Assembly: GCA_964508185.1 (NCBI GenBank)
Contig: CAZDSS010000002.1
Span: forward strand, 6,674 to 70,673
Origin: an uncultured Sphingomonadales bacterium
GTDB lineage: Bacteria > Pseudomonadota > Alphaproteobacteria > Sphingomonadales > Govanellaceae
Direction: 5' to 3'
Length of the DNA: 64,000 nucleotides
The notes beneath the pieces were generated by a model. It made no database searches, was not told where the DNA came from, and was given only the letters and a program-made list of their open reading frames with translations. The translations under genes and the position numbers were made by a program. This document shows positions 5,578 to 40,719 of this stretch, piece by piece (positions within the stretch are counted from its first letter, which is position 1; each line of letters begins with the position of its first letter).

Positions 5578-5620
5578 ACTTGTCTGGACAAATTTTCATG
5601 TAATGTACGAACTGTCAAGC
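5578..5620 (-). promoter_or_regulatory. Putative promoter plus operator for the TBDR/MFS/FAD-oxidase operon (operator copy 1, TTGTCTGGACAA at 5580-5591)
   Basis: Read on the minus strand: TTGACA (5618-5613), a 17-nt spacer containing TG, AAATTT, then the palindrome TTGTCCAGACAA. A 43-nt block is 34/43 identical to 29217-29259. Confidence 0.6.
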
Positions 5621-5646
5621 AGCCAAGCATCAAAGGGGAGAAAACG

Positions 5647-6327
5647 ATGGCGCTTTCCGATCTGGCCTATCCCAGTCTGGTCTATTTCCACATGTTTCTC
5701 TTCGTCATGTGGCTTGGCGCCGACGTGGGCGTCTATCTCGCCGGCCAGCATTTCCGAAAACGCGAAATTTATTCGCTGGATCAGCGGATTGCGCTGTTGA
5801 AGCTTCTCGTTCTGATCGACATGACGCCGCGCTCCGCCTGGGCGCTGATGGTGCCGGTGTCGCTCTCCGTCGTCACCATGGGCGGCTACTGGGCGGTGCC
5901 CGCCTGGCTGCTGATTCTCGCCTGGGTCATCGCCGGCATCTGGCTGTGGCTCATCTGGGACGCCCACTATCACGACATGACGCCGCGCGCCGCCCGCAAC
6001 CGGCGAATCGAGAGCTGGCTCCGAATCGGGCTCACGCTGTTCTATCTCTGGCTCGGCATCCAGTCGCTGCTGACCAACGCGCCGCTCGAGCCCGACTGGC
6101 TGGCGTCCAAGGCGCTTCTGTTCGGCCTGATCTTCGCCGCCGCCATCATGATCGACGTCACCTTCAAGCCGGTGGGGCCGCAGCTTGGCCGGCTCCTCAA
6201 GGAAGGCTCCAGCGACGAGACGGAAATTCCGCTGCGCCGGACCATGGACCGCACGCGGGTCTGGGTGCGCATCACCTATCTGCTTCTGGTCATCATCTCC
6301 TATGTGGGCCTGGTGAAGCCATTCTGA
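5647..6327 (+). CDS. Polytopic membrane protein of unknown function (paralog family M, copy 1)
   Basis: 226 aa starting at the ATG at 5647, preceded by AGGGGAG. About 6 TM segments. Shares H-x6-WLGAD and IDxxPR motifs with 26481-27143 and 35900-36583. Confidence 0.8.
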   Translation: MALSDLAYPSLVYFHMFLFVMWLGADVGVYLAGQHFRKREIYSLDQRIALLKLLVLIDMTPRSAWALMVPVSLSVVTMGGYWAVPAWLLILAWVIAGIWLWLIWDAHYHDMTPRAARNRRIESWLRIGLTLFYLWLGIQSLLTNAPLEPDWLASKALLFGLIFAAAIMIDVTFKPVGPQLGRLLKEGSSDETEIPLRRTMDRTRVWVRITYLLLVIISYVGLVKPF

Positions 6328-6359
6328 TGGCTTCACCGCGGCGGATGGCGAAGCGCGAC

Positions 6360-6387
6360 TTGAAATTTGTCTGGACAACCTTATAAG
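6360..6387 (+). promoter_or_regulatory. Putative sigma70-like promoter with embedded operator copy 2 (TTGTCTGGACAA at 6367-6378)
   Basis: TTGAAA (6360-6365), a 16-nt spacer, then TATAAG (6382-6387). The palindrome lies inside the spacer, directly upstream of the CitE-like gene. Confidence 0.55.
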
Positions 6388-6407: not shown

Positions 6408-7244
6408 GTGAGCAGAGTGGTATCCTTCGCCAGCATGTTGTTCGTGCCCGGCAGCCGGCCGGAACGCTTCGCCAAGGCGCTGGCGAGCGGCGCCGACATC
6501 GTCTGCATCGACCTTGAGGACGCGGTGCCCGCGGCCGACAAGGCGGCGGCGCGGGCGGCGGCCCTTGAGGCCATTGCCATCATCGACGGACGCGAACGGC
6601 TGGCGCTGCGCATCAACGGCGTCACCACCCGCGCGGGCCTCGAGGATCTGGTGGCGCTCGCCGATGCGGCCGTACCCCCTGCCCTTCTGTTCGTGCCCAA
6701 GGTGGAAAGCAGCGCCGAGATCGCCGTCATCCGCGGCGCTCTGGGCGACAAGGCGCCGGGCATCGTGCCGCTCATCGAAAGCGTCGCAGGCATGGATGCG
6801 ATTCGCGACATCGCCCGGGCGCCGGGTGTCGCCGCCATGATGTTCGGCGGCGGCGACTTTGCGGGCGAACTTGGCGTCGAACTCACCTGGGACGCGCTTG
6901 CGACGGCGCGCGGGCTTTTCGTCATGGCCTGCGCGGGGGCCTGCATTCCGGCGATCGACGTTCCCTATCTCGCCCTCGACGACGCGGAAGGGCTGCTGGC
7001 CGAATGCAGGGCCGTGAAGCGCCTCGGGTTCACCGCCAAGGCGGCGATCCATCCGGCGCAGGTTGCCGCCATCAACGAGACATTTCGTCCCACCGCCGCC
7101 GAGATCGCCGAAGCGCGCGAGGCGGAAGCCGCCTTCATCGCGGCGAACGGTGCGGCGGTCAGATTCAAGGGCCGCATGCTCGAAGCACCGATCATGCGCC
7201 GCTATCAGAGGATTCTAGCAATGGAGAAGATTCACAATGCGTGA
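6408..7244 (+). CDS. HpcH/HpaI aldolase / citrate lyase beta (CitE)-like acyl-CoA lyase. Candidate citramalyl- or malyl-CoA lyase.
   Basis: N-terminus SMLFVPGSRPERFAKALASGADIVCIDLEDAV is typical of CitE-like lyases. I chose the GTG at 6408 (GGGAGTGAGGAA upstream); in-frame GTGs at 6390 and 6417 are alternatives. Confidence 0.85.
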   Translation: MSRVVSFASMLFVPGSRPERFAKALASGADIVCIDLEDAVPAADKAAARAAALEAIAIIDGRERLALRINGVTTRAGLEDLVALADAAVPPALLFVPKVESSAEIAVIRGALGDKAPGIVPLIESVAGMDAIRDIARAPGVAAMMFGGGDFAGELGVELTWDALATARGLFVMACAGACIPAIDVPYLALDDAEGLLAECRAVKRLGFTAKAAIHPAQVAAINETFRPTAAEIAEAREAEAAFIAANGAAVRFKGRMLEAPIMRRYQRILAMEKIHNA

Positions 7245-7746
7245 CGGCGTGATCGAAGTCGAACCCGGACGGTATCGCGAAACCTTCGGGCGTTATTTCG
7301 AGGACTTTGTGGTCGGTCACATCTACGAGCACCGACCCGGCCGGACTATCACGGACACGGACAATGTCTGGTTCACCTTGCTGACCATGAACACCCATCC
7401 GGCCCATTTCGACTATGAATTCGCGAAGAAGACCGAATTCAAGAAGCCGCTGGTCTGCTCGCCCTTCACGGTCGCCCTCATGGTCGGAATGAGCGTCTCC
7501 GACATCAGCCAGAAGGCGGTCGCGAATCTCGGCTGGGACAATATCCGTCTCACCCACCCGCTGTTCCCGGGCGACACCCTTTATGCGGAAAGCGAAGTGA
7601 TCGACAAGCGTGAATCGAGCTCGCGCCCGCAGCAGGGCATCGTCACCGTGAAGACCACGGGCAAGAACCAGCACGGCGACATCGTCTGCACCTTCAACCG
7701 CACCATGCTGATCTGGAAGCGCGGCTTCGGTCCCATGGACGACTAA
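7237..7746 (+). CDS. MaoC-like (R)-specific enoyl-CoA hydratase. Candidate itaconyl- or mesaconyl-CoA hydratase.
   Basis: 169-aa hot-dog fold protein. The sequence context RTITDTDNVWFTLLTMNTHPAHFD is typical of the MaoC dehydratase family. It overlaps the CitE-like gene by 8 nt. Confidence 0.85.
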   Translation: MRDGVIEVEPGRYRETFGRYFEDFVVGHIYEHRPGRTITDTDNVWFTLLTMNTHPAHFDYEFAKKTEFKKPLVCSPFTVALMVGMSVSDISQKAVANLGWDNIRLTHPLFPGDTLYAESEVIDKRESSSRPQQGIVTVKTTGKNQHGDIVCTFNRTMLIWKRGFGPMDD

Positions 7747-7758
7747 GGACCGCCTGAA

Positions 7759-8928
7759 ATGAGTGAAAAAGTCATACGCAGCATCGACCCCGACGAGGAG
7801 GCAGCGCTGCTCGATTCCATCGACAAATGGATCGAGCGCGAGGTCCGGCCCGTGGTCATGCATCACGACCACAACGACATCTGGCCCGCCCATCTCGTGG
7901 AGCAGATGAAGGAAATGGGCCTCTTCGGCGCCACCATTTCCCAGGAATACGGCGGCCTCGGCCTGCCGGCGACGACCTACGCCAAGATCATCTCGCGCAT
8001 CTCGTCCTACTGGATGGCGCTCACCGGCATCGTCAATTCCCACCTCATCATGGCGGCGGCGGTCGAGCGCTTCGGCACGCCCGAACAGAAGGAGGAATGG
8101 CTGCCCAGGTTCGCAAGCGGCGAGATCCGCGGCGGCCTCGCGCTCACCGAGCCTGACGCCGGCACCGACCTCCAGGGGATCCGCACCACGGCGGTGCGCG
8201 ACGGTGACGATTACGTCATCAACGGCACCAAGACCTGGATCACCAACGGCATCGAAGGGAGCTGCTTCGCCCTTCTCGTCAAGACCGATCCCAATGCCGA
8301 GCCGCGCTACAAGGGCATGAGCTTCTTCATCGCCCCCAAGGGCCCCGGCTTCACCGTGGGCAAGAAGCTCGAGAAGCTCGGATACAAGGCAATCGACAGC
8401 GCCGAGCTCGTCTTCGACAACTACCGCGTGCCGGCCAAGAACCTGATCGGCGGCGTCGAGGGCCAGGGCTTCTTCCAGGCGACCGGCGGTCTCGAGCTCG
8501 GCCGCATCAACGTCGCCGCCCGCGGCGTCGGCCTTGCCGAAGGGGCGCTGCGGCTTGCGACCGAATATGCCCAGATCCGCAAGACCATGGGCAAGCCCAT
8601 CTGCGAGCATCAGGCGATCCAGCTCAAGCTCGGCGAGATGGTGACCCGGGCGCGCGCCGCGCGGCTTCTCGTCATGGATGCGGCCAGGGCCTATGACCGC
8701 GGCGAACGCTGCGACATGGAAGCGGGGATGGCCAAGTTCTTCGCCTCCGAGGCGGCGGTGCGCAATTCGGAAGAAGCCATGCGCATCTTCGGCGGCTACA
8801 GCTATTCCAAGGAATACGAGATCGAGCGCTTCTACCGCGACGCGCTTCTGATGTGCATCGGCGAAGGCACCAACGAGATGCAGCGCATCATCATCGCCAA
8901 GCAGTGGGTCAAAAGGAATCCGGTGTGA
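7759..8928 (+). CDS. Acyl-CoA dehydrogenase
   Basis: 389 aa. ACAD motifs GLALTEPDAGTDL and FGGYSYSKEYEIERFYRDA...IGEGTNEMQR. Confidence 0.92.
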   Translation: MSEKVIRSIDPDEEAALLDSIDKWIEREVRPVVMHHDHNDIWPAHLVEQMKEMGLFGATISQEYGGLGLPATTYAKIISRISSYWMALTGIVNSHLIMAAAVERFGTPEQKEEWLPRFASGEIRGGLALTEPDAGTDLQGIRTTAVRDGDDYVINGTKTWITNGIEGSCFALLVKTDPNAEPRYKGMSFFIAPKGPGFTVGKKLEKLGYKAIDSAELVFDNYRVPAKNLIGGVEGQGFFQATGGLELGRINVAARGVGLAEGALRLATEYAQIRKTMGKPICEHQAIQLKLGEMVTRARAARLLVMDAARAYDRGERCDMEAGMAKFFASEAAVRNSEEAMRIFGGYSYSKEYEIERFYRDALLMCIGEGTNEMQRIIIAKQWVKRNPV

Positions 8929-10118
8929 GCAGCAATCTTCCCCTCACGGGCTTCCGCGTCCTGTCGGCGGAGCAGTATGGCGCCGCGCCCTATGGCACCA
9001 TGTTCCTCGCCCAGCTCGGCGCGGAGGTCATCAAGATCGAGCAGCCGGGTGCGGGCGACACCGCGCGCGCGGTGGGGCCGTTCTTCCTCCGCGACAACGA
9101 AAGCCTGTTCTTCCAGACCTTCAACCTCAACAAGCGGTCGATCACCCTCGACCTCAACAGCGCCGAGGGCAAGGAGATCCTGCACCGCCTGGCGCGCGAC
9201 GCCCATGCCCTGGTCAACAATCTGCGCGGCGACCTGCCGGAGCGCATGGGCCTTACCTACAAGCACATGCAGGAGACGAACCCGGCCCTCGTCTGCGCCC
9301 ATCTTTCGGCCTATGGCCGCGATACGGAGCGGGCCAAATGGCCGGGCTACGACTATCTCATGCAGGCGGAAGCGGGCTTCCTGTGGATGACCGGCGAGCC
9401 CGACGGGCCGCCCACCCGCTTCGGTCTGTCCATGGTGGATTTCATGACCGGCACCACGATGGCCATCGGCCTGCTCGCCGCCATGATGGACGCCCAGCGC
9501 AGCGGCAAGGGCCGCGACGTGGACGTGGACCTTCTCTCCACCGCGCTCCATCAGACGAGCTATCCCGCCATGTGGTATCTGAATACGGGCCACAAGGTGG
9601 AGCGCGTCTCCCGCTCCGCCCATCCGTCCGTGGTGCCGAGCCAGATGTTCCGCACCGCCGACGGCTGGATCTTCGTCATGGCGCAGCTTCCCAAATTCTG
9701 GAAGCTTCTGGTGGAGCGCATCGGCCGTCCCGAGCTTGCGGACGATCCGCGCTTCAGGACGCCTGCGGACCGGCTTCAGAACCGCGACGTCCTGATCCCC
9801 ATCCTCGAGGACGTCTTCATGACGCAGACGACGGCCCACTGGCTCGATCTCCTGGCCGGGGACATGCCGGTCGCGCCCGTCTACAAGCTGGATGAGGCGC
9901 TGGACAATCCCTACATGGCCCGGGTCGGCATGCTGGACAAGGCGCCCCATCCCGACCGCGAGGACATGCGGGTGCTCGCCAACCCCATCCGCATCGACGG
10001 CAAGCGCCTGCCCAACCGGGCGGCCCCCCTGCTCGGCATCGATACGGACGACGTTCTGCGTGAAGCGGGCTACAGCGCCGACGACATCGCGGCCTTCCGC
10101 GCCAAGGGTGTGATCTGA
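8925..10118 (+). CDS. Family III (CaiB/BaiF) CoA-transferase
   Basis: The GTG at 8925 overlaps the ACAD stop (GTGA). PLTGFRVLSAEQYGAAPYGTMFLAQLGAEVIKIEQP is the typical family III N-terminus. Confidence 0.88.
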   Translation: MSSNLPLTGFRVLSAEQYGAAPYGTMFLAQLGAEVIKIEQPGAGDTARAVGPFFLRDNESLFFQTFNLNKRSITLDLNSAEGKEILHRLARDAHALVNNLRGDLPERMGLTYKHMQETNPALVCAHLSAYGRDTERAKWPGYDYLMQAEAGFLWMTGEPDGPPTRFGLSMVDFMTGTTMAIGLLAAMMDAQRSGKGRDVDVDLLSTALHQTSYPAMWYLNTGHKVERVSRSAHPSVVPSQMFRTADGWIFVMAQLPKFWKLLVERIGRPELADDPRFRTPADRLQNRDVLIPILEDVFMTQTTAHWLDLLAGDMPVAPVYKLDEALDNPYMARVGMLDKAPHPDREDMRVLANPIRIDGKRLPNRAAPLLGIDTDDVLREAGYSADDIAAFRAKGVI

Positions 10119-10122
10119 GACC

Positions 10123-11214
10123 ATGGCGAAGCTTGCCGGAATCAAGGTCATCGACCTGTCGCAGTTCCTGCCGGGGCCGATGCTCACCCTCATGATGGCG
10201 GACCAGGGGGCAGACGTCATCAAGATCGAACCGCCTGCGGGCGACCCCGCGCGCGGGCTGGAACCCTATGAAGCGGGCCAGTCCATCTGGTTCCGCAATC
10301 TCAACCGGGGCAAGCGCAGCATCGCGCTCGACCTCAAGTCGGAAGCGGGAAAAGAGAAGCTCTGGGAGCTGATCGCCGACGCCGACGTCTTCGTCGAAGG
10401 CTTCCGCCCGGGCGTCATGGCGCGGCTCGGCTTTTCCTACGAGGCGGTCGCGGCGCGCAATCCGCGCATCGTCTATTGCTCCGTCTCCGCCTTCGGGCAG
10501 GAGGGGGAACTGTCGCACCATCCGGCTCACGACCTTGCGGTGCAGGCCTTGTCCGGCTTCCTGTCCGTCAATGACGGGCGCGACGGGCGGCCCGTGGTGC
10601 CGGGGGTGCCCTCCGCCGACATGGCGGCGGGGCTGACCGCGCTCTCGGCCGTGCTCATGGCATTGATCGGCCGCGAGCGCACGGGACGGGGCGACCATAT
10701 CGACGCCGCCATGTTCGACAGCCTGATCCCCTGGTGCGCCCATATCGTGGGGACGGCGATTCATGGCGGCGAGCCGCCGCGCTCCCACAGCCAGCGCTCC
10801 CTGGGCGGCGCCGCCTTCTACAACGTCTATGAAACCGCCGATGGAAAGTTCGTGGTGCTGGGCGGGCGCGAGACCAAGTTCGTCGCGAACCTCCTCAACG
10901 CCCTCGGCCGTCCGGACCTCATCCCGCTCGGCAGCGAGCCGCCGGGACCGGCGCAGGCGCCCCTCGTCCGCTATCTCGAGGAAACCTTCCGCGCCCGCAC
11001 GCGCGACGAATGGGTCGCCTGGTTCGCCGACAAGGACGTGGCCTTCGCCCCCGTCCTCGACTTCCGCGAGGCCTTGTCCGCGCCCCACGTCGCCGAACGG
11101 GGCATCGTCGTCGAGGCCGACGGCGCCCACCATATCGCGCCGGCCATCCGCTTCCGCTCCGAACCGGACTGGAAGCCGCGGCCGGCGCCGGAGCTCGACG
11201 CCGATGGCCGCTGA
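10123..11214 (+). CDS. Family III (CaiB/BaiF) CoA-transferase, second tandem copy
   Basis: 363 aa. LAGIKVIDLSQFLPGPMLTLMMADQGADVIKIEPPAGDP is the typical N-terminus. Confidence 0.88.
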   Translation: MAKLAGIKVIDLSQFLPGPMLTLMMADQGADVIKIEPPAGDPARGLEPYEAGQSIWFRNLNRGKRSIALDLKSEAGKEKLWELIADADVFVEGFRPGVMARLGFSYEAVAARNPRIVYCSVSAFGQEGELSHHPAHDLAVQALSGFLSVNDGRDGRPVVPGVPSADMAAGLTALSAVLMALIGRERTGRGDHIDAAMFDSLIPWCAHIVGTAIHGGEPPRSHSQRSLGGAAFYNVYETADGKFVVLGGRETKFVANLLNALGRPDLIPLGSEPPGPAQAPLVRYLEETFRARTRDEWVAWFADKDVAFAPVLDFREALSAPHVAERGIVVEADGAHHIAPAIRFRSEPDWKPRPAPELDADGR

Positions 11215-17243: not shown

Positions 17244-17259
17244 ATCAAGGAGAAGTCCC

Positions 17260-21963: not shown

Positions 21964-21974
21964 GTCGCCCTCCG

Positions 21975-22283: not shown

Positions 22284-22301
22284 TCTTGCTCCCCTGTTGT
22301 C

Positions 22302-27892: not shown

Positions 27893-27923
27893 CTCCCCCT
27901 CCTAGAACCTGCTCCCCCCTGCC

Positions 27924-29216: not shown

Positions 29217-29259
29217 ACTTGTCTGGACAAATTTTCACGTTAATCGGGGGCTGTCAAGC
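29217..29259 (-). promoter_or_regulatory. Putative promoter plus operator for the CN-hydrolase/S/M/FAD-oxidase operon (operator copy 4, TTGTCTGGACAA at 29219-29230)
   Basis: Same architecture as 5578-5620: minus-strand TTGACA (29257-29252), a 17-nt spacer with TG, AAATTT, then the palindrome. 34/43 nt are identical to copy 1. Confidence 0.6.
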
Positions 29260-33212: not shown

Positions 33213-33322
33213 GTACTACTCCCTGGAAACGCGGACGGCACCGGACGCGGCCGGCGCCATGCCGTTCTTGGATCCACTATCTGAAATTCCCCGGTCATTC
33301 GGCCACCAACTTCCCGTCTTTT

Positions 33323-34612: not shown

Positions 34613-35919
34613 GCACTCAACTCCTGCACCACAAGAGGCCGCCCCACCCGGCGGAGCACCAGAAGGCCCGCAATGAGCAGCAGGGCGGCGACGCCGAAGA
34701 CGCCAAAGCGCTGCTCCCCCGTGATCACGGTGGAGAGCGCCACAAAAAGCGGCGCCATGAAGGATGACGCCCGCCCGATCATCACGTAAAGCCCGAAGGC
34801 TTCGCCGAGGGCGTCGGGATCGGCGAGAGAGACGAGAAGCGACCGGCTCGCCGCCATGATGACGCCGAGCATGCCGCAGGCGGCGACCGCCAGGGCGAGA
34901 TAGGCGTAGTCGGCGGGCCCCGTGAAGCCCCCGCCAGCGCCGCGCGCCGTCGCGATCACCAGCGCAAGCGCCCCCGTGATGGCGAGCAGGCCGGAAAGCG
35001 CCAGCACCAGCGTGCGGCGCGTGCCGAACAGCCCTTCAAGCCGCCCGGCGACGAGCCCTGCCGCAGCGCCGGCGATGAGGCCGAGGAAACCGAACACCGT
35101 CACCTCCGCCGTGCCCCAGCCGAGACGAGTCGCGGCGACGATGGAGATGAATGAGAAAAGGCACATGGTGCCGTCCCAGTAGAGCATGCGCGCAAGCAGA
35201 AAGGTGCGAAGGCCCTTCTGCGCCATGAACCGGGACCAGAGGCCCGAGAGCTCGCGAAAGCCCCGGGCAACCGCCGCGCCGAGCGACGCCTCGCTCCGCG
35301 CCGCGGGCTGCGGGCAGAACAGAAGGCACGGCAGAATGAAAAGGACGAGCCACAAGCCGCTTCCTGCGGAAAGCGCCCGCGCCGCCACATCATCCCCCAC
35401 CCCCGCCGCCGTCGCGCCGTAGCCGAGGCCGAGATAGAGAAGGCTCGCGACGAAGCCGAGCCCCACGCCAAGGCCGCTCAATTTTCCGGTCTCCGCCGCG
35501 GGCACAAGCCCGGGCAGCAGGCTGTCCGTATGTATGCGCGACCATTCGATCCCGAGCTGGGCGAGGCCGACGGACGCCAGCACCCACAGCACATGCCCCG
35601 GCGTGGCGGAGGCGAACCACAGGCTCAGAAGCGCCGCACAGGCAAGGGCGACGCTCATCACCAGCCACGGCCGCCGCGTGCCGGTGGCGTCCGCCAGCGC
35701 CCCGGCGACGGGCGCCGTCAGGATCAGGGTGAGGCTCGTCGCCGACAGGCCATAGCCCCACCAGGCGGTGCCGCGCACCGGGTCCGCGGCCACGACGCTC
35801 ACGAAGAAGGGCGGAAAGGCGAGCGACAGCACGAAGGAGAAGAACGGCTCCCGCGCGAAGTCCGCAAGCGCCCAGGACAGGCGGGCGCGGCCCGCTTTCT
35901 CAGACAAACTTGGCCACAC
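34609..35919 (-). CDS. MFS transporter, UMF1/Atg22-like subfamily
   Basis: 436 aa. N-terminus SWALADFAREPFFSFV is typical of UMF1-type MFS. The GTG at 35919 is taken from the ORF track; the TTG at 35907 is an alternative. It overlaps the upstream membrane gene. Confidence 0.78.
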   Translation of the reverse strand: MWPSLSEKAGRARLSWALADFAREPFFSFVLSLAFPPFFVSVVAADPVRGTAWWGYGLSATSLTLILTAPVAGALADATGTRRPWLVMSVALACAALLSLWFASATPGHVLWVLASVGLAQLGIEWSRIHTDSLLPGLVPAAETGKLSGLGVGLGFVASLLYLGLGYGATAAGVGDDVAARALSAGSGLWLVLFILPCLLFCPQPAARSEASLGAAVARGFRELSGLWSRFMAQKGLRTFLLARMLYWDGTMCLFSFISIVAATRLGWGTAEVTVFGFLGLIAGAAAGLVAGRLEGLFGTRRTLVLALSGLLAITGALALVIATARGAGGGFTGPADYAYLALAVAACGMLGVIMAASRSLLVSLADPDALGEAFGLYVMIGRASSFMAPLFVALSTVITGEQRFGVFGVAALLLIAGLLVLRRVGRPLVVQELSA

Positions 35920-36583
35920 CGAGCACTACCATCACACCGGACAGGGACCACATGCCGAAGGCGATCCAGCGCGCCCGGGCGAGGGAATCCGTGAAGAGGG
36001 CGTCCACCTCGGGGCTTCGCCCCTCGGTCGCGAGGCGCCGGAAGCCTTCGGCCCAGGCGCGCATGATGTGACGCAGGATGAGGCCCACCACGATCATCAG
36101 GCCAAAGACCAGAATCTTCGCCGCGATGAAGGTATGCGGGATCGGGTCGTCGGTCGCGAGCGACCACAGGCCGATGCCGATGAGCACCGGCGCCATCGCC
36201 ATGCGGATCCGCGTGTCGATCAGGCGGATGCGGTCGCCAGCAGGCGAGCCCATCCTGCGGTAGCCGTTGATGTTGAGGACGAGCCAGGCGATGCCGAGGA
36301 TCCAGACCGCGATCATGAACGGCCCCGTGGGCGACCACAGGCCGTAGAAGGATGCAAGCTGCAGGCCCACGGGCAGAAGCAGGGTGAACGCCATGCGCGG
36401 CATCAGGTCGATGCGGAACGCCGCCTGCAGGAAGCGCCGCCGCTCGTCCATGGGCAATTCCGGATTGGCGACGTAGCGGGAGGTGACGAACACCCCCCAG
36501 TCCGCGCCGAGCCAGTAGGCGAACAGCAGCACATGCACGATCACGAAGACGGTATGGACGGTCATGGGTTGGCACCCCGTCAC
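35900..36583 (-). CDS. Polytopic membrane protein of unknown function (paralog family M, copy 3)
   Basis: 227 aa. Motifs H-VLLFAY-WLGAD and RIDLMPR. The GTG at 36583 overlaps the stop of the upstream family-S gene (GTGA). The ATG at 36565 is an alternative. Confidence 0.8.
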   Translation of the reverse strand: MTGCQPMTVHTVFVIVHVLLFAYWLGADWGVFVTSRYVANPELPMDERRRFLQAAFRIDLMPRMAFTLLLPVGLQLASFYGLWSPTGPFMIAVWILGIAWLVLNINGYRRMGSPAGDRIRLIDTRIRMAMAPVLIGIGLWSLATDDPIPHTFIAAKILVFGLMIVVGLILRHIMRAWAEGFRRLATEGRSPEVDALFTDSLARARWIAFGMWSLSGVMVVLGVAKFV

Positions 36584-37290
36584 ATGGAAAGTTCAACGAG
36601 CTCGTAGGTGGTGGCGAGATAGCCGCCGACCCGGATCTTCACGAAGATGAAGTCGTCGGGCAGGCACCACAGCTCTTCCGGCGGATGCTCCTTGGGCAGC
36701 GCGCCCGCGAGATGGAACAGATAGCTGTCCACCTCGAAGGTGCCGGCGCGCACCGTGATGGTCTCGCGCCCGCGATATTCGATGCCGAAGCGGATGGGCA
36801 GGATCATGGGCCCACCGCTGCCGTCATGCTCCAGCGAACTCAGGTAGGACCGCTCCATCATCTGGACGCCGCCCTTCTTGTGGTCGTAGGCGGCAAGATG
36901 CCAGATGTCGCAGGACAGGGGGTGAGGTCCGAAGGTCTCGATGGGCGACGGCAGGCTGATGCGCTGGTCGATGCGGCCGAGATCGCGGTTCCAGCTCTGG
37001 AGCTCGATCTCCGTGCCGTTGAAGCGGTACCAGCCGGTGCCCTGCAGGCTGCCGTCCTTGATGAGACGGATATAGCTGTCGATGGGCCGGAAATTGCGGT
37101 CCACCGAATAGACGATGTCCTTGGACAGCGCCCGGTCGAAGATTTCGCATGTGGCGTGCAGCGTGCGGCTGCCGTCGGGGGCGACGCTCACCGAGAAGCG
37201 CTCGGTGCCGCGCAGGCCGACCTCGTCCCCGATGGCCTCGATGACGCCCGCGTAATGGCGGCGTCCCTGCCCTTGCGATCGTGATGACAT
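36580..37290 (-). CDS. Cytoplasmic protein of unknown function (paralog family S, copy 2)
   Basis: 236 aa from the ATG at 37290, preceded by GAGGGAGGG. Collinear with 27140-27892. Confidence 0.8.
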   Translation of the reverse strand: MSSRSQGQGRRHYAGVIEAIGDEVGLRGTERFSVSVAPDGSRTLHATCEIFDRALSKDIVYSVDRNFRPIDSYIRLIKDGSLQGTGWYRFNGTEIELQSWNRDLGRIDQRISLPSPIETFGPHPLSCDIWHLAAYDHKKGGVQMMERSYLSSLEHDGSGGPMILPIRFGIEYRGRETITVRAGTFEVDSYLFHLAGALPKEHPPEELWCLPDDFIFVKIRVGGYLATTYELVELSM

Positions 37291-37315
37291 CCCTTGTCCC
37301 TCCCTCAAGACAGGT

Positions 37316-37339
37316 CCGGCACGGATGATACCGTGCCGG
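37316..37339 (-). other. Intercistronic stem-loop between the TBDR gene and the family-S gene
   Basis: A 9-bp inverted repeat (CCGGCACGG / CCGTGCCGG) with a 6-nt loop and no U-tract. It could be a partial terminator or a processing/stability element. Confidence 0.4.
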
Positions 37340-37363
37340 AGCCGAATGCGGATTGGCCCGCCG

Positions 37364-39649
37364 TTACATCTGGTAGCGCGCGGTGAGCGTCCACATGCGC
37401 GGCGGATTGAAGTAGATGGCGTTGAAGCCGAGCGCCGGGATGAAGAACTGGCCGGTGGAATATTCTTCCTTGAACAGGTTCTTCACCGCGAGCGCAAGAC
37501 GGAAGCGGCTGTCGTCCGTCTCCCAGGCGACCTGCGCATCCACGAGATCATAGCCGTCCTCGCGCGACGCCACCGGGTTGCAGGAGCTGTGATAGTAGCC
37601 GCTCTTGCGGGTCCAGTTGCCGCCGATGGACATGGTGCCGCCCAGCACCTCGGGGATCGCGTAGTCGATCGCAAGGTTGCTCGAGAAGCTCGGCGCGAAC
37701 TTCTGCCGGAGCTTCGCCGTGCCGGTGCCCACCGGGCCGCAGTCCGCCACCTGGTCGAAATTGATCTTGGTGTACTTGTTGGCGAGATAGCCGACCGAGG
37801 CATTGACCTGCAGATTGCGGATGGGAAGCGCGGTCAGTTCAAGCTCCACGCCCTCGGTGCGCACGTCGCCCACGGAGAAGCGGGTGAGCGCGCCTGTCAC
37901 CTGGTCGGTGCCGGTGCCCTGCAGATCGTCGATCTCGTTGCGGAACACGGCCACGTTGGTGCGCAGGCGGCGGTCGAGCCAGTCGGCCTTGACGCCCGCC
38001 TCATAGGCCCAGACCTTCTCCGGCGCGATGGGCTCGAGCTTGTAGAGCTGGGTGCTCATCTCGCGGCCGTCGAACGCGCCCGACTTGAAGCCCTTGGAGA
38101 CCGAGGCATAGAGCAGCAGGTCATCGCGCACCGCGTAATCCACCGCAAAGCGCGGCGTGACGGAGGACCAGCTTTCCTTGATCTGGCGGGCGAGCGGCAC
38201 GGTGACCGCGCCCGCCGGGCTCGCGCCGTCGCACGGGCCGGCGGAGAACACGTCGCGGCCCACGGGCGCGGCGCAGATCAGGCTCGGCGAACCGTCGGGA
38301 TGGAACATGGCCGAGGCGAAATCCTTCTCGTCCCGGGTCCAGCGGATGCCGGTCGTCACCGTCCAGCGGTCGGAAAGGTGCCACGAGCCCGACGCGAAGA
38401 CGGCGATGCTGTCCGTATCCAGCGTGGTGTCCGCATAATCGTTGGCGCCAGCAGGCGCGAGGATCATGTTCTCGGTGATCTGGCTGTTTTCCTCGCGGAA
38501 CCAGTAGACGCCGACCACGTAATCAAGCAGTCCGCCGAAGGCCTGGCCGGACGCCTGCAGTTCCTGGCTGAACTGCTCCTGGTCCTGGTCCTGATAGAGA
38601 TGGAGGCACGGCAGATCGAAGCCGAAGCAGGTATCCTGCCCGTCGGCGTCCAGTACGAATTCGGAGCTCATCTCGCGCCAGGCGGTGATGGAGCGCAGCG
38701 TCACCGCGCCGAGATCGTAGCTGATGTTGAGCGAGGCGCCGCGCTGGTCGATCTCGCTCATGGGGTTCGTGAGATCGGAGCGCAGGGTGTAGACGTCGCG
38801 GTCGCCGTCCACCTGCTGGTTCTTGTCCCACAGGCCGAGATCCGCCGGCGGCTGCAGGAGGACGCCGGTCGCGAACGCCGGGTCCGAATGGTCGCGGATC
38901 TCGTCATAGGAAATGAGGATGTCGAGGCGCTCGTTGGGCTGCCAGCGCAGGGAGGCGCGGCCCGCCAGCACGTCCTGATCGTTGACGTCGGCGCCGTTCA
39001 CCAGGTTCTTGGCCCAGCCGTCGCGCTGGCGCGACAGGAAGGCAAGCTGGCCGTAGAGCCCTTCGGCGAGCTTGCCGGAGACGCTCGCGCGCACGTCGAT
39101 CCGCTCGTGATTGCCGACGGTGCCTTCGAGCATCAGGCGGGTTTCCTCGTCCGGCTTGCGGCTCACGAGCTTGATGGCGCCGGCCGAGGTGTTGCGGCCG
39201 TAGAGCGTGCCCTGCGGTCCGCGCAGCACTTCGATGCGCTCGATGTCGTAGAGGTCGAACAGCGCGCCGTTCTGACGCGGAATGTAGACGTCGTCCACAT
39301 AGATCCCGACCGGCGGGTCGGAGGTGAAGAAGCTTTCATCCTCGCCGATGCCGCGGAGCGCGGCGCGGGCGCCGTTCTGCAGGCCCGTATTGGGCTCCAT
39401 CCAGAGGTTGGGGACGAAGTTCTGCACCTCGCGGACGGAGAAGACCTGCATGCGGTCGAGGGCGTTGGCGTCAAAGGCGCTGACCGCGATCGGTACGTCC
39501 TGCAGACGCTCCTCGCGGCGCTGGGCGGTGACGACGATCTCGTCGAGGGCGATGCCCTCCCGCAGCTGGGCGTGGCCGCTGTCGGCGACGAATACGGATG
39601 AAGCAAGGGCAATAGGCAGTACTAACGAACGACCAATGGCGTGATCCAT
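37364..39649 (-). CDS. TonB-dependent receptor
   Basis: 761 aa from the ATG at 39649 (GGGAGGA upstream). Plug region IVVTAQRREERLQDVPIAVSAF and IEVLRGPQGTLYGRNTSAGAIKL. The C-terminal residue is Met rather than the usual aromatic. Confidence 0.9.
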   Translation of the reverse strand: MDHAIGRSLVLPIALASSVFVADSGHAQLREGIALDEIVVTAQRREERLQDVPIAVSAFDANALDRMQVFSVREVQNFVPNLWMEPNTGLQNGARAALRGIGEDESFFTSDPPVGIYVDDVYIPRQNGALFDLYDIERIEVLRGPQGTLYGRNTSAGAIKLVSRKPDEETRLMLEGTVGNHERIDVRASVSGKLAEGLYGQLAFLSRQRDGWAKNLVNGADVNDQDVLAGRASLRWQPNERLDILISYDEIRDHSDPAFATGVLLQPPADLGLWDKNQQVDGDRDVYTLRSDLTNPMSEIDQRGASLNISYDLGAVTLRSITAWREMSSEFVLDADGQDTCFGFDLPCLHLYQDQDQEQFSQELQASGQAFGGLLDYVVGVYWFREENSQITENMILAPAGANDYADTTLDTDSIAVFASGSWHLSDRWTVTTGIRWTRDEKDFASAMFHPDGSPSLICAAPVGRDVFSAGPCDGASPAGAVTVPLARQIKESWSSVTPRFAVDYAVRDDLLLYASVSKGFKSGAFDGREMSTQLYKLEPIAPEKVWAYEAGVKADWLDRRLRTNVAVFRNEIDDLQGTGTDQVTGALTRFSVGDVRTEGVELELTALPIRNLQVNASVGYLANKYTKINFDQVADCGPVGTGTAKLRQKFAPSFSSNLAIDYAIPEVLGGTMSIGGNWTRKSGYYHSSCNPVASREDGYDLVDAQVAWETDDSRFRLALAVKNLFKEEYSTGQFFIPALGFNAIYFNPPRMWTLTARYQM

Positions 39650-39751
39650 GGAAATCCTCCCGAAATCTCCCACAGTGACCGGCGCTTGTGCCCGATCATC
39701 CAGCTTCATGCTGGGCCGCAGATCGCCTTCAAGGCCATCAACTAGTTGTCT

Positions 39752-40684
39752 TTATCGGCAACCCGCGGTTGGCAGGGTTGCGGAACTCCCCTTCGCCACG
39801 ATCTTGCGCACCTCGTCGAGGAAGCGGACGGAATCGGGCGAGCGCGTGCTGTTCTTGCGGAAGAAGACGGCGGTGGGCCGCTGCCACGGCGGCGAGGCCA
39901 CGTCGATCACCGCGAGCAATCCCGCCTCCACGTCGCGCCGCACCATCTCGTAGGGCAGCAGGAACAGGGCGTCCGACGCCTGGGCGAGGCTGACGGCGAA
40001 GGCCACCGAATCCGTCCGGAACTGGGCCTGCGGCGGCTCGAGCCCCGCGGCCTCGAAGCTTTCGCGCGCTTCCTCGATCGCCCGGTCCTCGTCCAGTCCC
40101 ATGATCCAGGGATAGGTTTCAAGCTCCTCGAGGGTCACGGCCTTGCGCCCGGCCAGGGGGTGTCCCGCGCGGCCGAACAGGTGATAGGTTTCCTGATTGA
40201 CGATGTGATGGCCGATCAGGGGATCCACCTCGTCCCGCGTCATGATGCTGACGAAGACGTCGATCTTGCCGTTGACGAGCTGCGGCATCAGGGTTTCATA
40301 GGTCCCTTCCACCACGGTGACCGAGAGCTTCGGATTCCAGCGCTTCACGGCCAGCACGGCGCAGGCGGCGATCTGCATGGCCGCGGCGGCGCCGACGCCG
40401 ATCGCGAGATCGTTGGTGCCCGTGCCCAGCATCTGGTCGAGATCGCGGCGGAGGCTCCGCACCTCGGCGTCGATGTTGCGGGCATAGGCCTCGATGCGCT
40501 CGGCGAAAAGGGTCGGATTCACCGAGCGGCTGTCGCGGTCGAACAGCCGGACGCCGAGGCTTTCCTCGAAACGGCGGATGCTCTTGCTCAGCGCCTGGGG
40601 CGTCAGATGGCACATCTCCGCCGCGCGCCAGTAGCTTCGCGTTTCCATGAGCGCCAGAAAATGGCGCAATTGCCGGATCTCCAT
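39752..40684 (-). CDS. LysR-family transcriptional regulator
   Basis: 310 aa. HTH MEIRQLRHFLALMETRSYWRAAEMCHLTPQALSKSIRRFEESLGVRLFDR. Same strand as, and directly upstream of, the TBDR cassette. Confidence 0.9.
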   Translation of the reverse strand: MEIRQLRHFLALMETRSYWRAAEMCHLTPQALSKSIRRFEESLGVRLFDRDSRSVNPTLFAERIEAYARNIDAEVRSLRRDLDQMLGTGTNDLAIGVGAAAAMQIAACAVLAVKRWNPKLSVTVVEGTYETLMPQLVNGKIDVFVSIMTRDEVDPLIGHHIVNQETYHLFGRAGHPLAGRKAVTLEELETYPWIMGLDEDRAIEEARESFEAAGLEPPQAQFRTDSVAFAVSLAQASDALFLLPYEMVRRDVEAGLLAVIDVASPPWQRPTAVFFRKNSTRSPDSVRFLDEVRKIVAKGSSATLPTAGCR

Positions 40685-40707
40685 GGTCCTCCCCCTGTTG
40701 CCGCGAT

Positions 40708-40719
40708 TTGTCTGGACAA
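40708..40719 (+). promoter_or_regulatory. Operator copy 5 (TTGTCTGGACAA) in the LysR / ba3-oxidase divergent region
   Basis: GATTTGTCTGGACAACGGG lies 23 nt upstream of the LysR ATG (40684) and about 180 nt upstream of the cbaD-like start. The A/T flank is oriented toward the plus-strand oxidase operon. Confidence 0.55.

What the first reader, a model, noticed from the sequence alone, without database searches (positions are those of the whole stretch)
5580..40719. Five copies of the palindrome TTGTCYRGACAA, all in promoter regions, define an apparent local regulon
The 12-mer occurs at five positions:
- 5580-5591
- 6367-6378
- 24800-24811 (central CA instead of TG, that is, the reverse complement)
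- 29219-29230
- 40708-40719

Reading through all 64 kb, I saw it only in intergenic regions, immediately upstream of operons. Those operons are TBDR/MFS/FAD-oxidase, the CitE-MaoC-ACAD-CoA-transferase operon, a second TBDR, the CN-hydrolase/S/M/FAD-oxidase operon, and the LysR/ba3-oxidase divergent region.

Every copy has an asymmetric A/T flank (consensus about AAATTTGTCYRGACAAS) oriented toward the downstream gene. The GTCTGGAC core resembles HutC-subfamily GntR operators, for example the DasR/NagR-type TGGTCTAGACCA. A HutC-type GntR gene sits in the middle of the cluster at 11216-11977.

If this is right, one effector-responsive repressor couples outer-membrane uptake, periplasmic and cytoplasmic hydrolysis, CoA-dependent catabolism and possibly a dedicated terminal oxidase.
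Basis: partly seen in the sequence, partly recalled or inferred. Interest (0 to 1): 0.8.

Follow-up and report, generated by a model that had tools for sequence, protein, structure and literature searches.

The report
HutC-type repressor operators, catabolic island
The repeated 12-base palindrome is a real, evolutionarily conserved binding site, almost certainly for the neighbouring GntR/HutC-type repressor. It switches on a set of outer-membrane uptake and CoA-dependent breakdown genes in sphingomonad bacteria. This is an ordinary kind of gene switch, but it controls a pathway nobody has described.

Summary
TTGTCYRGACAA occurs exactly five times, where 0.01 is expected, and all five copies lie in the 4% of the region that is non-coding.

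The motif is phylogenetically conserved. In 80 Sphingomonadales loci anchored on the orthologous GntR/UTRA (HutC-subfamily) gene, the perfect palindrome TTGTCCGGACAA sits at the same two promoters as window sites 1 and 2. Its 16-bp consensus is A[T/G]TTGTCCGGACAAAT. It lies at fixed distances from a conserved TTGAC(A) box.

In relatives, codon usage at that spot shows selection on the DNA itself: GTC-CGG-ACA in 23 of 27 loci, and the Thr codon ACA in 91% against 12% overall.

The half-site matches the solved NagR-DNA register. The guanine-reading Arg is kept. The second Arg is replaced by Ser, and at the base that Arg reads the operator has T.

Best reading: a HutC-type repressor with an unknown effector controls three TonB-receptor modules and a C5-dicarboxylyl-CoA pathway.

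Site 5 more likely serves the LysR-TBDR3 operon than the ba3 oxidase.

It is a new member of a known kind. Binding has not been tested.

The parts
5580..5591 (.). Operator 1 (TTGTCTGGACAA). It lies in the 143-bp divergent region between TBDR1-MFS-FAD oxidase (minus strand) and the membrane-protein gene 5647-6327 (plus strand).
   Evidence: Exact match. The orthologous site is present in 51 relatives, with TTGAC starting 27 nt upstream in 38 of 51. In the window the minus-strand TTGACA is at 5618-5613, also 27 nt from the operator start.
6367..6378 (.). Operator 2. It lies between the membrane-protein stop (6327) and the CitE-like/MaoC/ACAD/CoA-transferase x2 operon (start GTG 6417). It is flanked by TTGAAA (6360-6365) and TTATAA (6381-6386).
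   Evidence: Exact match. The orthologous site is present in 58 relatives, with TTGAC 12-14 nt upstream in 54 of 58. Window sequence read.
12088..12099 (.). Operator 0 (TTATCCGGACAA, 1 mismatch). It is embedded in codons 23-27 of MmgE/PrpD gene 12021-13268 and lies 110 nt upstream of the GntR start codon. It is the probable autoregulatory or roadblock site.
   Evidence: Found. N-terminal conservation shows the PrpD1 start is GTG 12021. Exact copies occur at the same codons in 9-10 relatives and 1-mismatch copies in about 20. Codon-level selection: GTC-CGG-ACA in 23 of 27 loci.
24800..24811 (.). Operator 3 (TTGTCCAGACAA), 70 nt upstream of TBDR2-YCII-ADH (minus strand). The minus-strand TTGAAG starts 12 nt upstream of the operator.
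   Evidence: Exact match and sequence. The TBDR2 orthologue in Edaphosphingomonas haloaromaticamans (L091) has two sites upstream. Other TonB receptors beside GntR orthologues also carry sites (L018, L026, L077).
29219..29230 (.). Operator 4, 161 nt upstream of the Tat-signal CN-hydrolase/unknown/membrane protein/FAD-oxidase operon (minus strand). The minus-strand TTGACA at 29257-29252 lies 27 nt from the operator start, the same architecture as site 1.
   Evidence: Exact match and sequence. Hyphomonas locus L093 has ATGTCCGGACAA 17 nt upstream of its CN-hydrolase orthologue, with a GntR/UTRA gene nearby. In L091 and L092 the site is absent or degenerate, and the 351-bp gap is absent there.
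40708..40719 (.). Operator 5, in the 214-bp divergent region. It is 23 nt upstream of the LysR2 ATG (40684, minus strand; followed by TBDR3-unk-unk-MFS-MFS-amidohydrolase) and 179 nt upstream of coxIIa (40899, plus strand).
   Evidence: Exact match and sequence. A candidate minus-strand promoter is TTGCCA (40755-40750), N17, TGAAAT, then the operator at about +1; this is my reading and was not detected by the consensus scanner. The LysR-TBDR3 unit is conserved without cox in L097 and L098. Only a degenerate site is seen in L097 and none in L098.
11216..11977 (-). GntR-family, HutC-subfamily regulator (253 aa; winged HTH plus UTRA effector domain). It is the proposed repressor.
   Evidence: Pfam GntR 4e-21 and UTRA 8e-23. 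The closest solved structures are NagR/YvoA (2e-19) and DasR. It is below cut-off for every named NCBIfam equivalog; HutC scores 101 against a cut-off of 220. Orthologues with a near-invariant HTH occur in at least 80 Sphingomonadales genomes.
144..5503 (-). Target operon 1: TonB-dependent receptor (3008-5503), MFS transporter (1709-2992), FAD-linked oxidase (144-1712).
   Evidence: Pfam. Synteny with the operator in relatives.
5647..6327 (+). Target gene: 226-aa membrane protein with no family assignment, divergent from TBDR1.
   Evidence: No Pfam or NCBIfam hit. Conserved between the two operators in about 50 relatives. Paralogues at 26481-27143 and 35900-36583.
6417..11214 (+). Target operon 2: CitE/HpcH-like CoA-ester lyase, MaoC/mesaconyl-CoA-hydratase-like protein, acyl-CoA dehydrogenase, and two family-III CoA-transferases.
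   Evidence: Pfam. NCBIfam resemblance below cut-off to RipC/Ccl and to succinyl-CoA:mesaconate CoA-transferase. Synteny.
12021..20924 (+). Probable target operon 0: MmgE/PrpD x2, PaaK-like CoA ligase, amidase, HapK-like protein, SDR, PuuE-like deacetylase, enoyl-CoA hydratase, glyoxalase-fold protein.
   Evidence: Pfam and NCBIfam. Conserved in order in relatives. In rearranged clusters the operator sits upstream of these genes (L105, L113, L139, L166, L190).
20989..24729 (-). Target operon 3: TBDR2 (22345-24729), YCII (21975-22283), Zn-ADH-like oxidoreductase (20989-21963).
   Evidence: Pfam. L091 synteny with sites.
24913..29057 (-). Target operon 4: CN-hydrolase with twin-arginine signal (27924-29057), unknown 250 aa, membrane protein 220 aa, FAD-linked oxidase (24913-26484).
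   Evidence: Pfam. N-terminus MSALTRRGLLGA. Paralogy to the other modules. Same gene order in L091 and L092.
31746..40684 (-). Probable target operon 5: LysR2, TBDR3 (37364-39649), unknown 242 aa, membrane protein 227 aa, MFS x2, amidohydrolase.
   Evidence: Pfam. Paralogy. The unit is conserved in L095-L098. Co-transcription is inferred, not shown.

Best explanation
**What it is.** The palindromes are operators of the HutC-subfamily GntR regulator encoded at 11216-11977.

**How it works (inferred).**
- A dimer binds the 16-bp inverted repeat. The family consensus is A[T/G]TTGTCCGGACAAAT; in this lineage the core is TTGTCTGGACAA.
- One winged-helix domain binds each TTGTC half-site.
- The sites lie between or just downstream of the promoter elements, so the bound dimer blocks RNA polymerase.
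- An unidentified small-molecule effector, most likely an intermediate of the pathway, binds the C-terminal UTRA domain and lowers DNA affinity. This de-represses the regulon.

**The regulon.**
- Three paralogous outer-membrane and periplasmic uptake/oxidation modules: TonB receptor, MFS transporter, small membrane protein, unknown protein, FAD oxidase, and a secreted CN-hydrolase.
- An 'upper' operon of amide-hydrolysing and CoA-activating enzymes.
- A 'lower' operon resembling C5-dicarboxylate (itaconate/mesaconate/citramalyl-CoA) catabolism.
- A degenerate operator inside the first codons of the divergent MmgE/PrpD gene, which probably gives autoregulation.

**Shown:** presence, non-randomness, position, deep conservation, co-occurrence with the regulator, and structural plausibility.

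**Inferred:** binding, repression rather than activation, the identity of the effector and substrate, and the operon boundaries.
For: 1. **Non-random and intergenic.** Five exact copies against 0.01 expected. All are in the 4.1% of non-coding DNA.
2. **Phylogenetic footprint.** The exact palindrome occurs 126 times in 1.3 Mb around 80 GntR orthologues. Of these, 117 lie outside orthologous coding HSPs that cover 87% of the DNA (p = 2e-90).
   - The sites sit at the CitE promoter in 58 loci and the TBDR1 promoter in 51 loci.
   - The core is invariant and the flanks are conserved (A 99%, A 97%, T 100%).
   - The distance to a TTGAC box is fixed.
3. **Regulator linkage.**
   - The GntR gene is the only regulator conserved in the cluster.
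   - A copy lies about 110-150 nt upstream of the GntR gene, inside PrpD1 codons. It shows nucleotide-level selection: GTC-CGG-ACA in 23 of 27 loci, and ACA in 29 of 32 against 12% usage overall.
   - The paralogous GntR locus L018 has sites upstream of itself and of two TonB receptors.
   - Distant GntR homologues (30-38% identity) in Variovorax and Azospirillum sit beside the same enzyme genes, with the variant TTGTACGTACAA in the promoters.
   - In rearranged clusters from metagenomes the operator has moved with the operon start (L139, L166).
4. **Family fit.**
   - GntR plus UTRA domains.
   - The nearest solved structures are NagR and DasR.
   - In NagR, Arg48 reads G-4 and Arg38 reads G-5 of GTGGTCT|AGACCAC (PMC4333415).
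   - Here the Arg48 equivalent (Arg54) is invariant and G-4, T-3 and C-2 are shared. The Arg38 equivalent is Ser, and the operator has T at -5.
5. **Specificity.** A fourth TonB-receptor operon in the window (52196-54430) has no site.
Against: - No experimental binding, expression or effector data exist for this protein or any orthologue that I could find.
- The E. coli-type consensus scanner finds no canonical sigma-70 promoter at any site. The overlap of operator and promoter therefore rests on a conserved TTGAC box and on my reading of weak -10 elements.
- Sites 4 and 5 are not well conserved outside the lineage. They are degenerate or absent in L091, L092, L097 and L098.
- The sixth site is degenerate and lies in coding DNA.
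- All five exact copies in this lineage have a TG/CA centre instead of the CG seen in relatives, and this is unexplained.
- About 70% of an arbitrary sample of metagenomic hits to the 16-mer lie in low-GC contigs without regulon genes. The bare sequence is therefore not unique to this system.
Confidence: 0.85

Rival explanations
1. The palindrome is a real operator, but it is bound by a different regulator. Candidates are one of the two LysR-type regulators in the window (30040-30945, 39752-40684) or an unlinked global factor. The GntR protein would then recognise something else.
For: Site 5 is next to LysR2, and a LysR gene lies beside the CN-hydrolase operon here and in L091 and L092. No binding data exist.
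Against: - Neither LysR gene is conserved next to the two core sites in the 80 orthologous loci, whereas the GntR gene always is.
- The motif variant tracks the GntR variant in Variovorax and Azospirillum.
- The palindrome has the HutC GT-N-YR-N-AC form and the NagR register, not the T-N11-A of LysR boxes (family knowledge).
- There is no site in the unk174/LysR1 divergent gap.
Confidence: 0.07
2. GntR binds the sites but acts as an activator, or as a dual regulator, rather than as a simple repressor.
For: The -10 elements are weak and the scanner finds no canonical promoters. This would be compatible with activator-dependent promoters. Site 4 is 161 nt from its start codon.
Against: - The sites lie downstream of, or within 12-14 nt of, a conserved -35-like TTGAC box. 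That places them over the spacer, the -10 or +1, where bound proteins occlude polymerase.
- Characterised HutC-subfamily members (NagR, DasR, HutC, PhnF) are repressors released by effectors (PMC4333415, PMC4918961).
Confidence: 0.05
3. The palindrome is a dispersed repeat (REP/MITE-like), an RNA hairpin or terminator, or a promoter element for an alternative sigma factor. On this reading it is not a transcription-factor operator.
For: It is palindromic and recurs. The 16-mer also occurs in many unrelated low-GC metagenome contigs.
Against: - Only 12-16 bp are conserved.
- There are one or two copies per promoter, at fixed orthologous positions across 80 genomes.
- The predicted RNA hairpins are weak (-1.9 to -6.2 kcal/mol; z from -0.6 to +0.5).
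- Its distance to the TTGAC box differs between promoters (27 nt against 12-14 nt), so it is not itself a fixed promoter hexamer.
- The sites lie upstream of genes, not at their 3' ends.
Confidence: 0.02

Closest known systems
NagR (YvoA) of Bacillus subtilis and DasR of Streptomyces coelicolor with their dre operators (GntR/HutC subfamily; structures 4WWC, 4U0V, 4ZS8)
   Same: - The domain architecture is the same: winged HTH plus UTRA.
- These are the closest solved structures (E = 2e-19 and 2e-13).
- The operator is a 14-16 bp palindrome with a shared G-4, T-3, C-2 half-site and a central YR step (GTGGTCT|AGACCAC against TTTGTCC|GGACAAA).
- The guanine-reading Arg of the recognition helix is conserved.
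- The operators overlap promoters, and repression is relieved by an effector (PMC4333415).
   Different: - Sequence identity is only about 25-30%.
- The Arg38 equivalent is Ser, and the operator has T, not G, at -5. It also has T, not G, at -7.
- The centre is CG (TG in this lineage) instead of TA.
- The targets are TonB receptors and CoA-dependent catabolic enzymes, not GlcNAc genes.
- The effector is unknown and is unlikely to be an amino-sugar phosphate.
HutC, the histidine-utilisation repressor (TIGR02018), whose reconstructed regulons in Sphingomonadales and Caulobacterales include a TonB receptor (PMC5343134)
   Same: It belongs to the same subfamily and gives the best NCBIfam hit. There is precedent for a HutC-type repressor controlling a TonB-dependent receptor in sphingomonads.
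   Different: It scores 101 bits against a cut-off of 220. There are no hut genes in the window or in the 80 loci. It is a different orthologous group.
Itaconate / C5-dicarboxylate degradation genes (Ict CoA-transferase, Ich MaoC-type hydratase, Ccl/RipC lyase; mesaconate CoA-transferase and mesaconyl-CoA hydratase of the methylaspartate and 3-hydroxypropionate routes)
   Same: The lower operon has the same enzyme families in one unit: CitE/HpcH lyase, MaoC/MC_hydratase, ACAD, family-III CoA-transferases, and MmgE/PrpD nearby.
   Different: - Every match is below the curated equivalog cut-off (RipC 235 against 375; mesaconate CoA-transferase 226 against 700).
- The cluster is joined to amidase, PaaK-like ligase, PuuE-like deacetylase, a secreted CN-hydrolase and TonB receptors, which the known itaconate clusters lack (my knowledge).
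- The substrate is therefore not established.

Membership tests
GntR family, HutC subfamily transcription regulators | N-terminal GntR-type winged helix-turn-helix domain | tested here: met
   PF00392, residues 18-80, E = 4e-21.
GntR family, HutC subfamily transcription regulators | C-terminal UTRA (chorismate-lyase-fold) effector-binding domain | tested here: met
   PF07702, residues 107-243, E = 8e-23. Full-length alignment to NagR/YvoA and DasR chains.
GntR family, HutC subfamily transcription regulators | Palindromic operator with a GT-N-(TA/YR)-N-AC core, about 14-16 bp | tested here: met
   The operator is TT-GT-C-YR-G-AC-AA inside A[T/G]TTGTCCGGACAAAT. Register compared with the NagR palindrome GTGGTCTAGACCAC. 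The subfamily consensus itself is from my knowledge of Rigali et al. 2002, which I did not read here.
GntR family, HutC subfamily transcription regulators | Base-contacting residues of the NagR type (Arg38, Arg48, wing Gly69) | tested here: inconclusive
   The Arg48 equivalent (Arg54) and the Gly69 equivalent (Gly75) are invariant in 80 orthologues. The Arg38 equivalent is Ser44, in step with T instead of G at operator position -5. This rests on alignment only; no structure was modelled.
GntR family, HutC subfamily transcription regulators | Specific binding of the protein to the operator, relieved by a small-molecule effector | not testable with these tools
   Needs EMSA, footprinting or DAP-seq, plus ligand screening.
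HutC orthologous group (histidine utilisation repressor) | Score above the TIGR02018 cut-off and linkage to hutH/U/I/G genes | tested here: not met
   It scores 101 bits against a cut-off of 220. There are no hut genes in the window or in relatives.
NagR/DasR dre regulon | dre consensus (TGGTCTAGACCA) upstream of GlcNAc or chitin utilisation genes | tested here: not met
   The operator differs at positions -7, -5 and -1 and their symmetry mates. No nag or chitin genes are present.
REP / dispersed palindromic repeats | Many copies per genome, extragenic at 3' ends of genes, 30-40 bp, stable stem-loop | tested here: not met
   One or two copies per promoter at orthologous positions. Only 12-16 bp are conserved. 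Hairpins are weak with z near 0. A whole-genome copy number could not be obtained.
Itaconate degradation cluster (Ict-Ich-Ccl) | Equivalog-level match of the lyase to RipC/Ccl and of a CoA-transferase to a named C5-dicarboxylate transferase | tested here: not met
   RipC_Ccl scores 235 bits against a cut-off of 375. Succinyl-CoA:mesaconate CoA-transferase scores 226 against 700. The families are the same, but orthology is not shown.

The most novel reading that the evidence does not exclude
The operator marks a widely conserved but undescribed catabolic pathway. It occurs in Sphingomonadales, with rearranged versions in other Proteobacteria.

On this reading a scarce nitrogen-containing organic acid or cyclic amide is taken up through dedicated TonB receptors. 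It is opened by secreted and cytoplasmic amide hydrolases. It is then funnelled through CoA thioesters into a C5-dicarboxylyl-CoA lyase step.

The HutC-type regulator would sense a new effector. In this particular lineage every operator of the regulon has been retuned in concert (centre CG to TG, one flank lost). That would be a natural case of co-evolution between a regulator and its operators across a whole regulon.

The operator embedded in PrpD1 codons would be a clean example of a regulatory site constraining codon choice.
Probability: 0.3. Interest if true: 0.6.

Novelty: new member of a known kind. Interest (0 to 1): 0.42.

Why it matters
- **A regulon for an unassigned pathway.** It gives a precise operator (A[T/G]TTGTCCGGACAAAT) and a candidate repressor for a roughly 20-40 kb catabolic island. 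The island is conserved in at least 80 sphingomonad species and has no assigned substrate.
- **Tools for finding the substrate.** With the operator in hand the full regulon can be listed in any closed genome. Promoter-reporter fusions or the purified UTRA domain can be used to screen for the inducer, and thereby for the substrate of three TonB-dependent receptors.
- **An annotation trap.** Gene callers start the MmgE/PrpD gene 39 codons too late, which makes a coding-embedded operator look intergenic.
- **A limit.** The regulatory logic itself, a HutC-type repressor with palindromic operators over promoters, is textbook.

Tried and rejected
1. **Wing residue and operator centre.** I tested whether the lineage-specific TG centre co-varies with the unique wing substitution Arg74 to Gln. 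All 80 orthologues have Arg there.
   - This was rejected as a simple rule.
   - Independent lineages with Gln (P0042) or His (P0113) at that position keep CCGG-centred sites.
   - Distant homologues with Gln also use CG-centred sites.
2. **CCGG avoidance or methylation.** General avoidance of CCGG, or methylation-driven decay, does not explain the TG centres. CCGG (616 observed, 9.6 per kb) and TCCGGA (19 observed, 18.7 expected) are not depleted.
3. **Promoter scanner.** The sigma-70/terminator consensus scanner found nothing at any site.
4. **RNA folding.** Folding the sites as RNA gave no significant structure.
5. **Literature.** Searches for the motif strings and for the gene-cluster combination found nothing relevant.
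6. **Unknown proteins.** Pfam at a lenient threshold gave nothing for the recurring unknown proteins.
7. **Failed look-up.** The look-up of the Sphingobium chungbukense TBDR3 orthologue (P0244) failed.
8. **No extra site.** No operator is present in the unk174/LysR1 divergent gap or upstream of the fourth TonB receptor.
9. **Source genome.** The source genome is not in the genome collection (best GntR match 79%). A true whole-genome scan of the organism itself was therefore impossible.


Full report
**1. Checking the observation**

The 12-mer TTGTCYRGACAA occurs exactly five times in the 64-kb window: at 5580, 6367, 24800, 29219 and 40708. The expectation from dinucleotide-preserving shuffles is 0.01.

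The window is 66% G+C. I built a gene map from third-position GC bias and Pfam.

All five copies lie in intergenic gaps of 143, 89, 183, 351 and 214 bp. Only 4.1% of positions 144-44130 are non-coding, so five out of five by chance is about 1e-7.

- TBDR/MFS/FAD-oxidase (minus strand);
- the CitE-like/MaoC/ACAD/CoA-transferase x2 operon (plus strand);
- a second TBDR (minus strand);
- the CN-hydrolase/unknown/unknown/FAD-oxidase operon (minus strand);
- the LysR/ba3-oxidase divergent gap.

The gene at 11216-11977 has GntR and UTRA domains, which makes it HutC-subfamily.

One more copy with a single mismatch, TTATCCGGACAA, lies at 12088. It is not significant by itself and it lies inside a coding sequence.

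**2. The motif is phylogenetically conserved**

The regulator has close homologues (57-80% identity) with a nearly invariant DNA-binding region. A scan of one genome per species with that alignment returned 80 Sphingomonadales loci, each with 10-kb flanks. The source genome itself is not among them. The exact protein is seen only in metagenome assemblies and one MAG.

Those 1.3 Mb hold 126 exact matches to the 12-mer. Almost all are the perfect palindrome TTGTCCGGACAA.

I mapped orthologues of the window's proteins onto the loci. This shows one conserved cluster: Glyox-ECH-PDA-SDR-HapK-amidase-ligase-PrpD2-PrpD1 | GntR | CoAT2-CoAT1-ACAD-MaoC-CitE | membrane protein | TBDR1-MFS1.

The palindrome sits at the same places as in the window:
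- between CitE and the membrane-protein gene (window site 2; 58 loci);
- between the membrane-protein gene and TBDR1 (window site 1; 51 loci);
- in a subset, between PrpD1 and GntR (window 12088).

Of the 126 exact sites, 117 lie outside orthologous coding segments that cover 87% of the DNA (binomial p = 2e-90). The other nine are all at one spot in PrpD1.

**3. Anatomy of the operator**

Aligned in the direction of the downstream gene, the sites give the consensus AAA[G/T]TTGTCCGGACAAAT.
- The 12-bp core is invariant.
- The flanks are A at 99%, then A at 97% and T at 100%.
- The unit is therefore a near-perfect 16-bp palindrome, ATTTGTCCGGACAAAT.

A TTGAC(A) box starts 27 nt upstream of the operator at the TBDR1 promoter in 38 of 51 loci. 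It starts 12-14 nt upstream at the CitE promoter in 54 of 58 loci. The operator therefore covers the -10/+1 region in one case and the spacer/-10 region in the other.

In the window:
- sites 1 and 4 have the 27-nt architecture (TTGACA at 5618-5613 and at 29257-29252);
- site 3 has TTGAAG 12 nt upstream;
- site 2 is bracketed by TTGAAA and TTATAA.

In relatives both arms are kept.

A caveat applies. The simple E. coli-type scanner reports no canonical promoter at any site. The promoter assignments rest on conservation and on my own reading.

**4. The sixth, coding-embedded site**

Gene callers in related contigs start the first MmgE/PrpD gene at the ATG equivalent to 12138. That choice would make 12088 intergenic.

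The translated upstream region is conserved across 70 loci (…SLTERLAQHLxRPVxxxVRTxARLHLLDWL). The true start is therefore the GTG at 12021, and the site occupies codons 23-27.

The evidence for selection on the DNA itself is as follows.
- Among 27 loci that encode Val-Arg-Thr at that spot, 23 use exactly GTC-CGG-ACA.
- Thr is ACA in 29 of 32 cases. ACA accounts for 12% of Thr codons in the same genes.
- Codon usage alone predicts about 1.6% for the triple.

That is selection on the nucleotide sequence: an operator inside the coding region. It lies about 110 nt upstream of the divergent GntR start codon, where a promoter for GntR must lie, because the intergenic gap is only 43 bp.

The window copy keeps CCGGACAA and the rare ACA codon, but has A for G at position 3. 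I read it as a weakened autoregulatory or roadblock site.

**5. Which protein binds?**

The GntR gene is the only regulator conserved in the cluster. Four further lines link it to the motif.

(a) Sphingomonas cavernae has a second paralogue (70% identity) in a different neighbourhood. Sites lie upstream of that paralogue and of two TonB receptors (L018).

(b) In Variovorax paradoxus and Azospirillum brasilense, GntR homologues (30-38% identity) sit beside CoA-ester lyase, MaoC, ACAD and CoA-transferase genes. The promoters there carry the related palindrome TTGTACGTACAA. The motif changes when the regulator changes, while the targets stay the same.

(c) In rearranged clusters from metagenomes the operator sits at the new operon start (L139, L166, L105, L113).

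(d) The closest solved structures are NagR/YvoA and DasR.
- In the NagR-DNA complex, Arg48 reads G-4 and Arg38 reads G-5 of GTGGTCT|AGACCAC. The wing Gly69 touches position -7, and positions -3 to -1 are contacted only through the backbone (PMC4333415).
- Here the half-site is TTTGTCC|, which shares T-6, G-4, T-3 and C-2.
- The Arg48 equivalent (Arg54 in VSRFTVR) is invariant.
- The Arg38 equivalent is Ser, matching T instead of G at -5.

The protein is not an orthologue of HutC, PhnF, TreR or any other named equivalog.

**6. The regulon and site 5**

The window holds three paralogous uptake and oxidation modules.
- TBDR1, TBDR2 and TBDR3 are related.
- So are the membrane proteins at 5647-6327, 26481-27143 and 35900-36583.
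- So are the unknown proteins at 27140-27892 and 36580-37308.
- So are the two FAD oxidases.

Each module is headed by an operator. A fourth TonB-receptor operon (52196-54430) has none, so the motif is not a generic feature of receptor promoters.

Conservation of the accessory sites is mixed.
- The TBDR2 orthologue of Edaphosphingomonas haloaromaticamans has two sites upstream.
- A Hyphomonas CN-hydrolase orthologue has ATGTCCGGACAA 17 nt upstream, with a GntR/UTRA gene nearby.
- In L091 and L092 the CN-hydrolase gene overlaps the preceding 174-aa gene. The site is absent or degenerate there. The 351-bp gap carrying site 4 is therefore a lineage-specific promoter.

Site 5 lies 23 nt from the LysR2 start codon and 179 nt from coxIIa. 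The unit LysR-TBDR3-unknown-unknown-MFS-MFS is conserved in a related metagenomic contig and in a Steroidobacteraceae MAG, and in neither is it next to cox genes. I therefore think lysR2 and the TBDR3 operon are the relevant target. Control of the ba3 oxidase remains possible but is unsupported. Site 5 is not clearly conserved elsewhere: a 2-mismatch site is seen in L097 and none in L098.

**7. What the pathway may be**

The lower operon looks like C5-dicarboxylate catabolism. It encodes a CitE/Ccl-like lyase, an MC_hydratase/MaoC protein, an ACAD and mesaconate-type CoA-transferases. All scores are below the curated cut-offs.

The upper operon and the accessory modules are rich in amide-bond hydrolases: an amidase, a PuuE-like deacetylase, a Tat-exported CN-hydrolase and a metal amidohydrolase. 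They also encode a PaaK-like ligase.

I infer a nitrogen-containing acid or cyclic amide as substrate. I cannot name it, and no paper in the library describes the cluster or the motif.

**8. Is it a dispersed repeat?**

I scanned the metagenome collection for the 16-mer. The scan stopped at 120 hits.
- Thirty-three hits lie next to homologues of regulon genes. These include a recurrent new context, with a deacetylase-like gene divergent from a homologue of the 174-aa protein.
- Most of the remainder are in low-GC contigs with no such genes. I take these as background for an A/T-ended 16-mer.

The RNA hairpins are insignificant. A whole-genome count was not possible.

**9. Unexplained**

All five exact operators in this lineage have a TG/CA centre and have lost the A-T flank on one side. 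Relatives have CG centres and both flanks.
- CCGG is not avoided in the window.
- The regulator here has unique substitutions in the DNA-binding domain: Tyr-Gly to Phe-Glu before the recognition helix, and the wing Arg74 to Gln.
- The wing substitution does not predict the centre in two other lineages.
- The cause remains open.

**10. Verdict**

This is a genuine, conserved operator of a HutC-subfamily repressor. It defines a regulon of TonB-dependent uptake and CoA-dependent catabolism. Mechanistically it is a new member of a well-known kind. Its value is as a handle on an uncharacterised, widely conserved sphingomonad pathway. Binding, the direction of regulation and the effector all remain to be shown experimentally.

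Noticed in passing
window 5580, 6367, 24800, 29219, 40708 compared with L011-L090: Every exact operator in this lineage has a CTGG/CCAG centre and only one A-T flank. Eighty relatives have CCGG centres and both flanks. CCGG is not depleted in the window. The regulator has unique Phe-Glu and wing Gln substitutions, but the wing change does not predict the centre in two other lineages.
   Followed up: partly
window 12021-12138 (L001 9840-9957): Gene callers start the first MmgE/PrpD gene at the ATG at 12138 (376 aa). N-terminal conservation across about 70 loci shows the GTG at 12021 (415 aa) is the start. The short call hides the fact that the 12088 operator lies in coding DNA.
   Followed up: yes
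window 144-1712 / 24913-26484; 5647-6327 / 26481-27143 / 35900-36583; 27140-27892 / 36580-37308; 3008-5503 / 22345-24729 / 37364-39649: There are three paralogous modules, each with a TonB receptor, a small membrane protein, an unknown protein of about 245 aa, and an FAD oxidase or MFS transporter. The two unknown protein families have no Pfam or NCBIfam assignment, even at a lenient threshold.
   Followed up: partly
window 29058-29408: The 351-bp gap carrying site 4 is absent in L091 and L092, where the 174-aa gene overlaps the CN-hydrolase start. The gap also holds a 26-codon ORF (29138 down to 29058) with a Shine-Dalgarno-like sequence. Its stop overlaps the CN-hydrolase ATG (ATGA). It may be a leader peptide or may be chance.
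   Followed up: no
window 29409-30041 and 29761-30945: The mechanical ORFs are over-extended. The unknown gene starts at ATG 29933 (174 aa) and LysR1 at ATG 30040. This leaves a 106-bp divergent gap with no operator. Homologues of the 174-aa protein are nevertheless often directly preceded by the operator in metagenomic contigs (L100, L124, L135, L150, L153, L176, L183).
   Followed up: partly
window 52196-54430 and 46193-52101: A fourth TonB-receptor operon, with three amidohydrolase-family genes (one fused to PD40 beta-propeller repeats) and a neighbouring AraC regulator (55640-56422), has no copy of the palindrome. It is presumably a separate regulon.
   Followed up: partly
L219 (Variovorax paradoxus CP063167) 5321-5433 and 8815; L220 (Azospirillum brasilense p4) 6633 and 8863: A related palindrome, TTGTACGTACAA, lies in the promoters of CoA-ester lyase and MaoC/ACAD/CoA-transferase operons, next to GntR homologues (30-38% identity). 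It looks like a sister regulon with a shifted operator.
   Followed up: partly
L018 2514/2536; L091 14181/14204; L077 19310/19343; L038, L040, L043; L156 446-477: Relatives often have two operators in tandem, 18-33 bp apart, or directly abutting 16-mers in L156. These occur upstream of TonB-receptor genes and suggest cooperative binding. The window has only single sites.
   Followed up: no
L099-L218 (metagenome hits to ATTTGTCCGGACAAAT): About 85 of 120 hits are in contigs of 32-50% G+C, many from human gut, with no homologue of any regulon gene. They may be chance occurrences or an unrelated system.
   Followed up: no
L221 (Logan SRR28386214 contig): An orthologous cluster appears fragmented into many short gene calls: split PrpD, CoA-transferase, TBDR and MFS genes. 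The cause may be pseudogenisation or assembly errors. The operators are intact.
   Followed up: no
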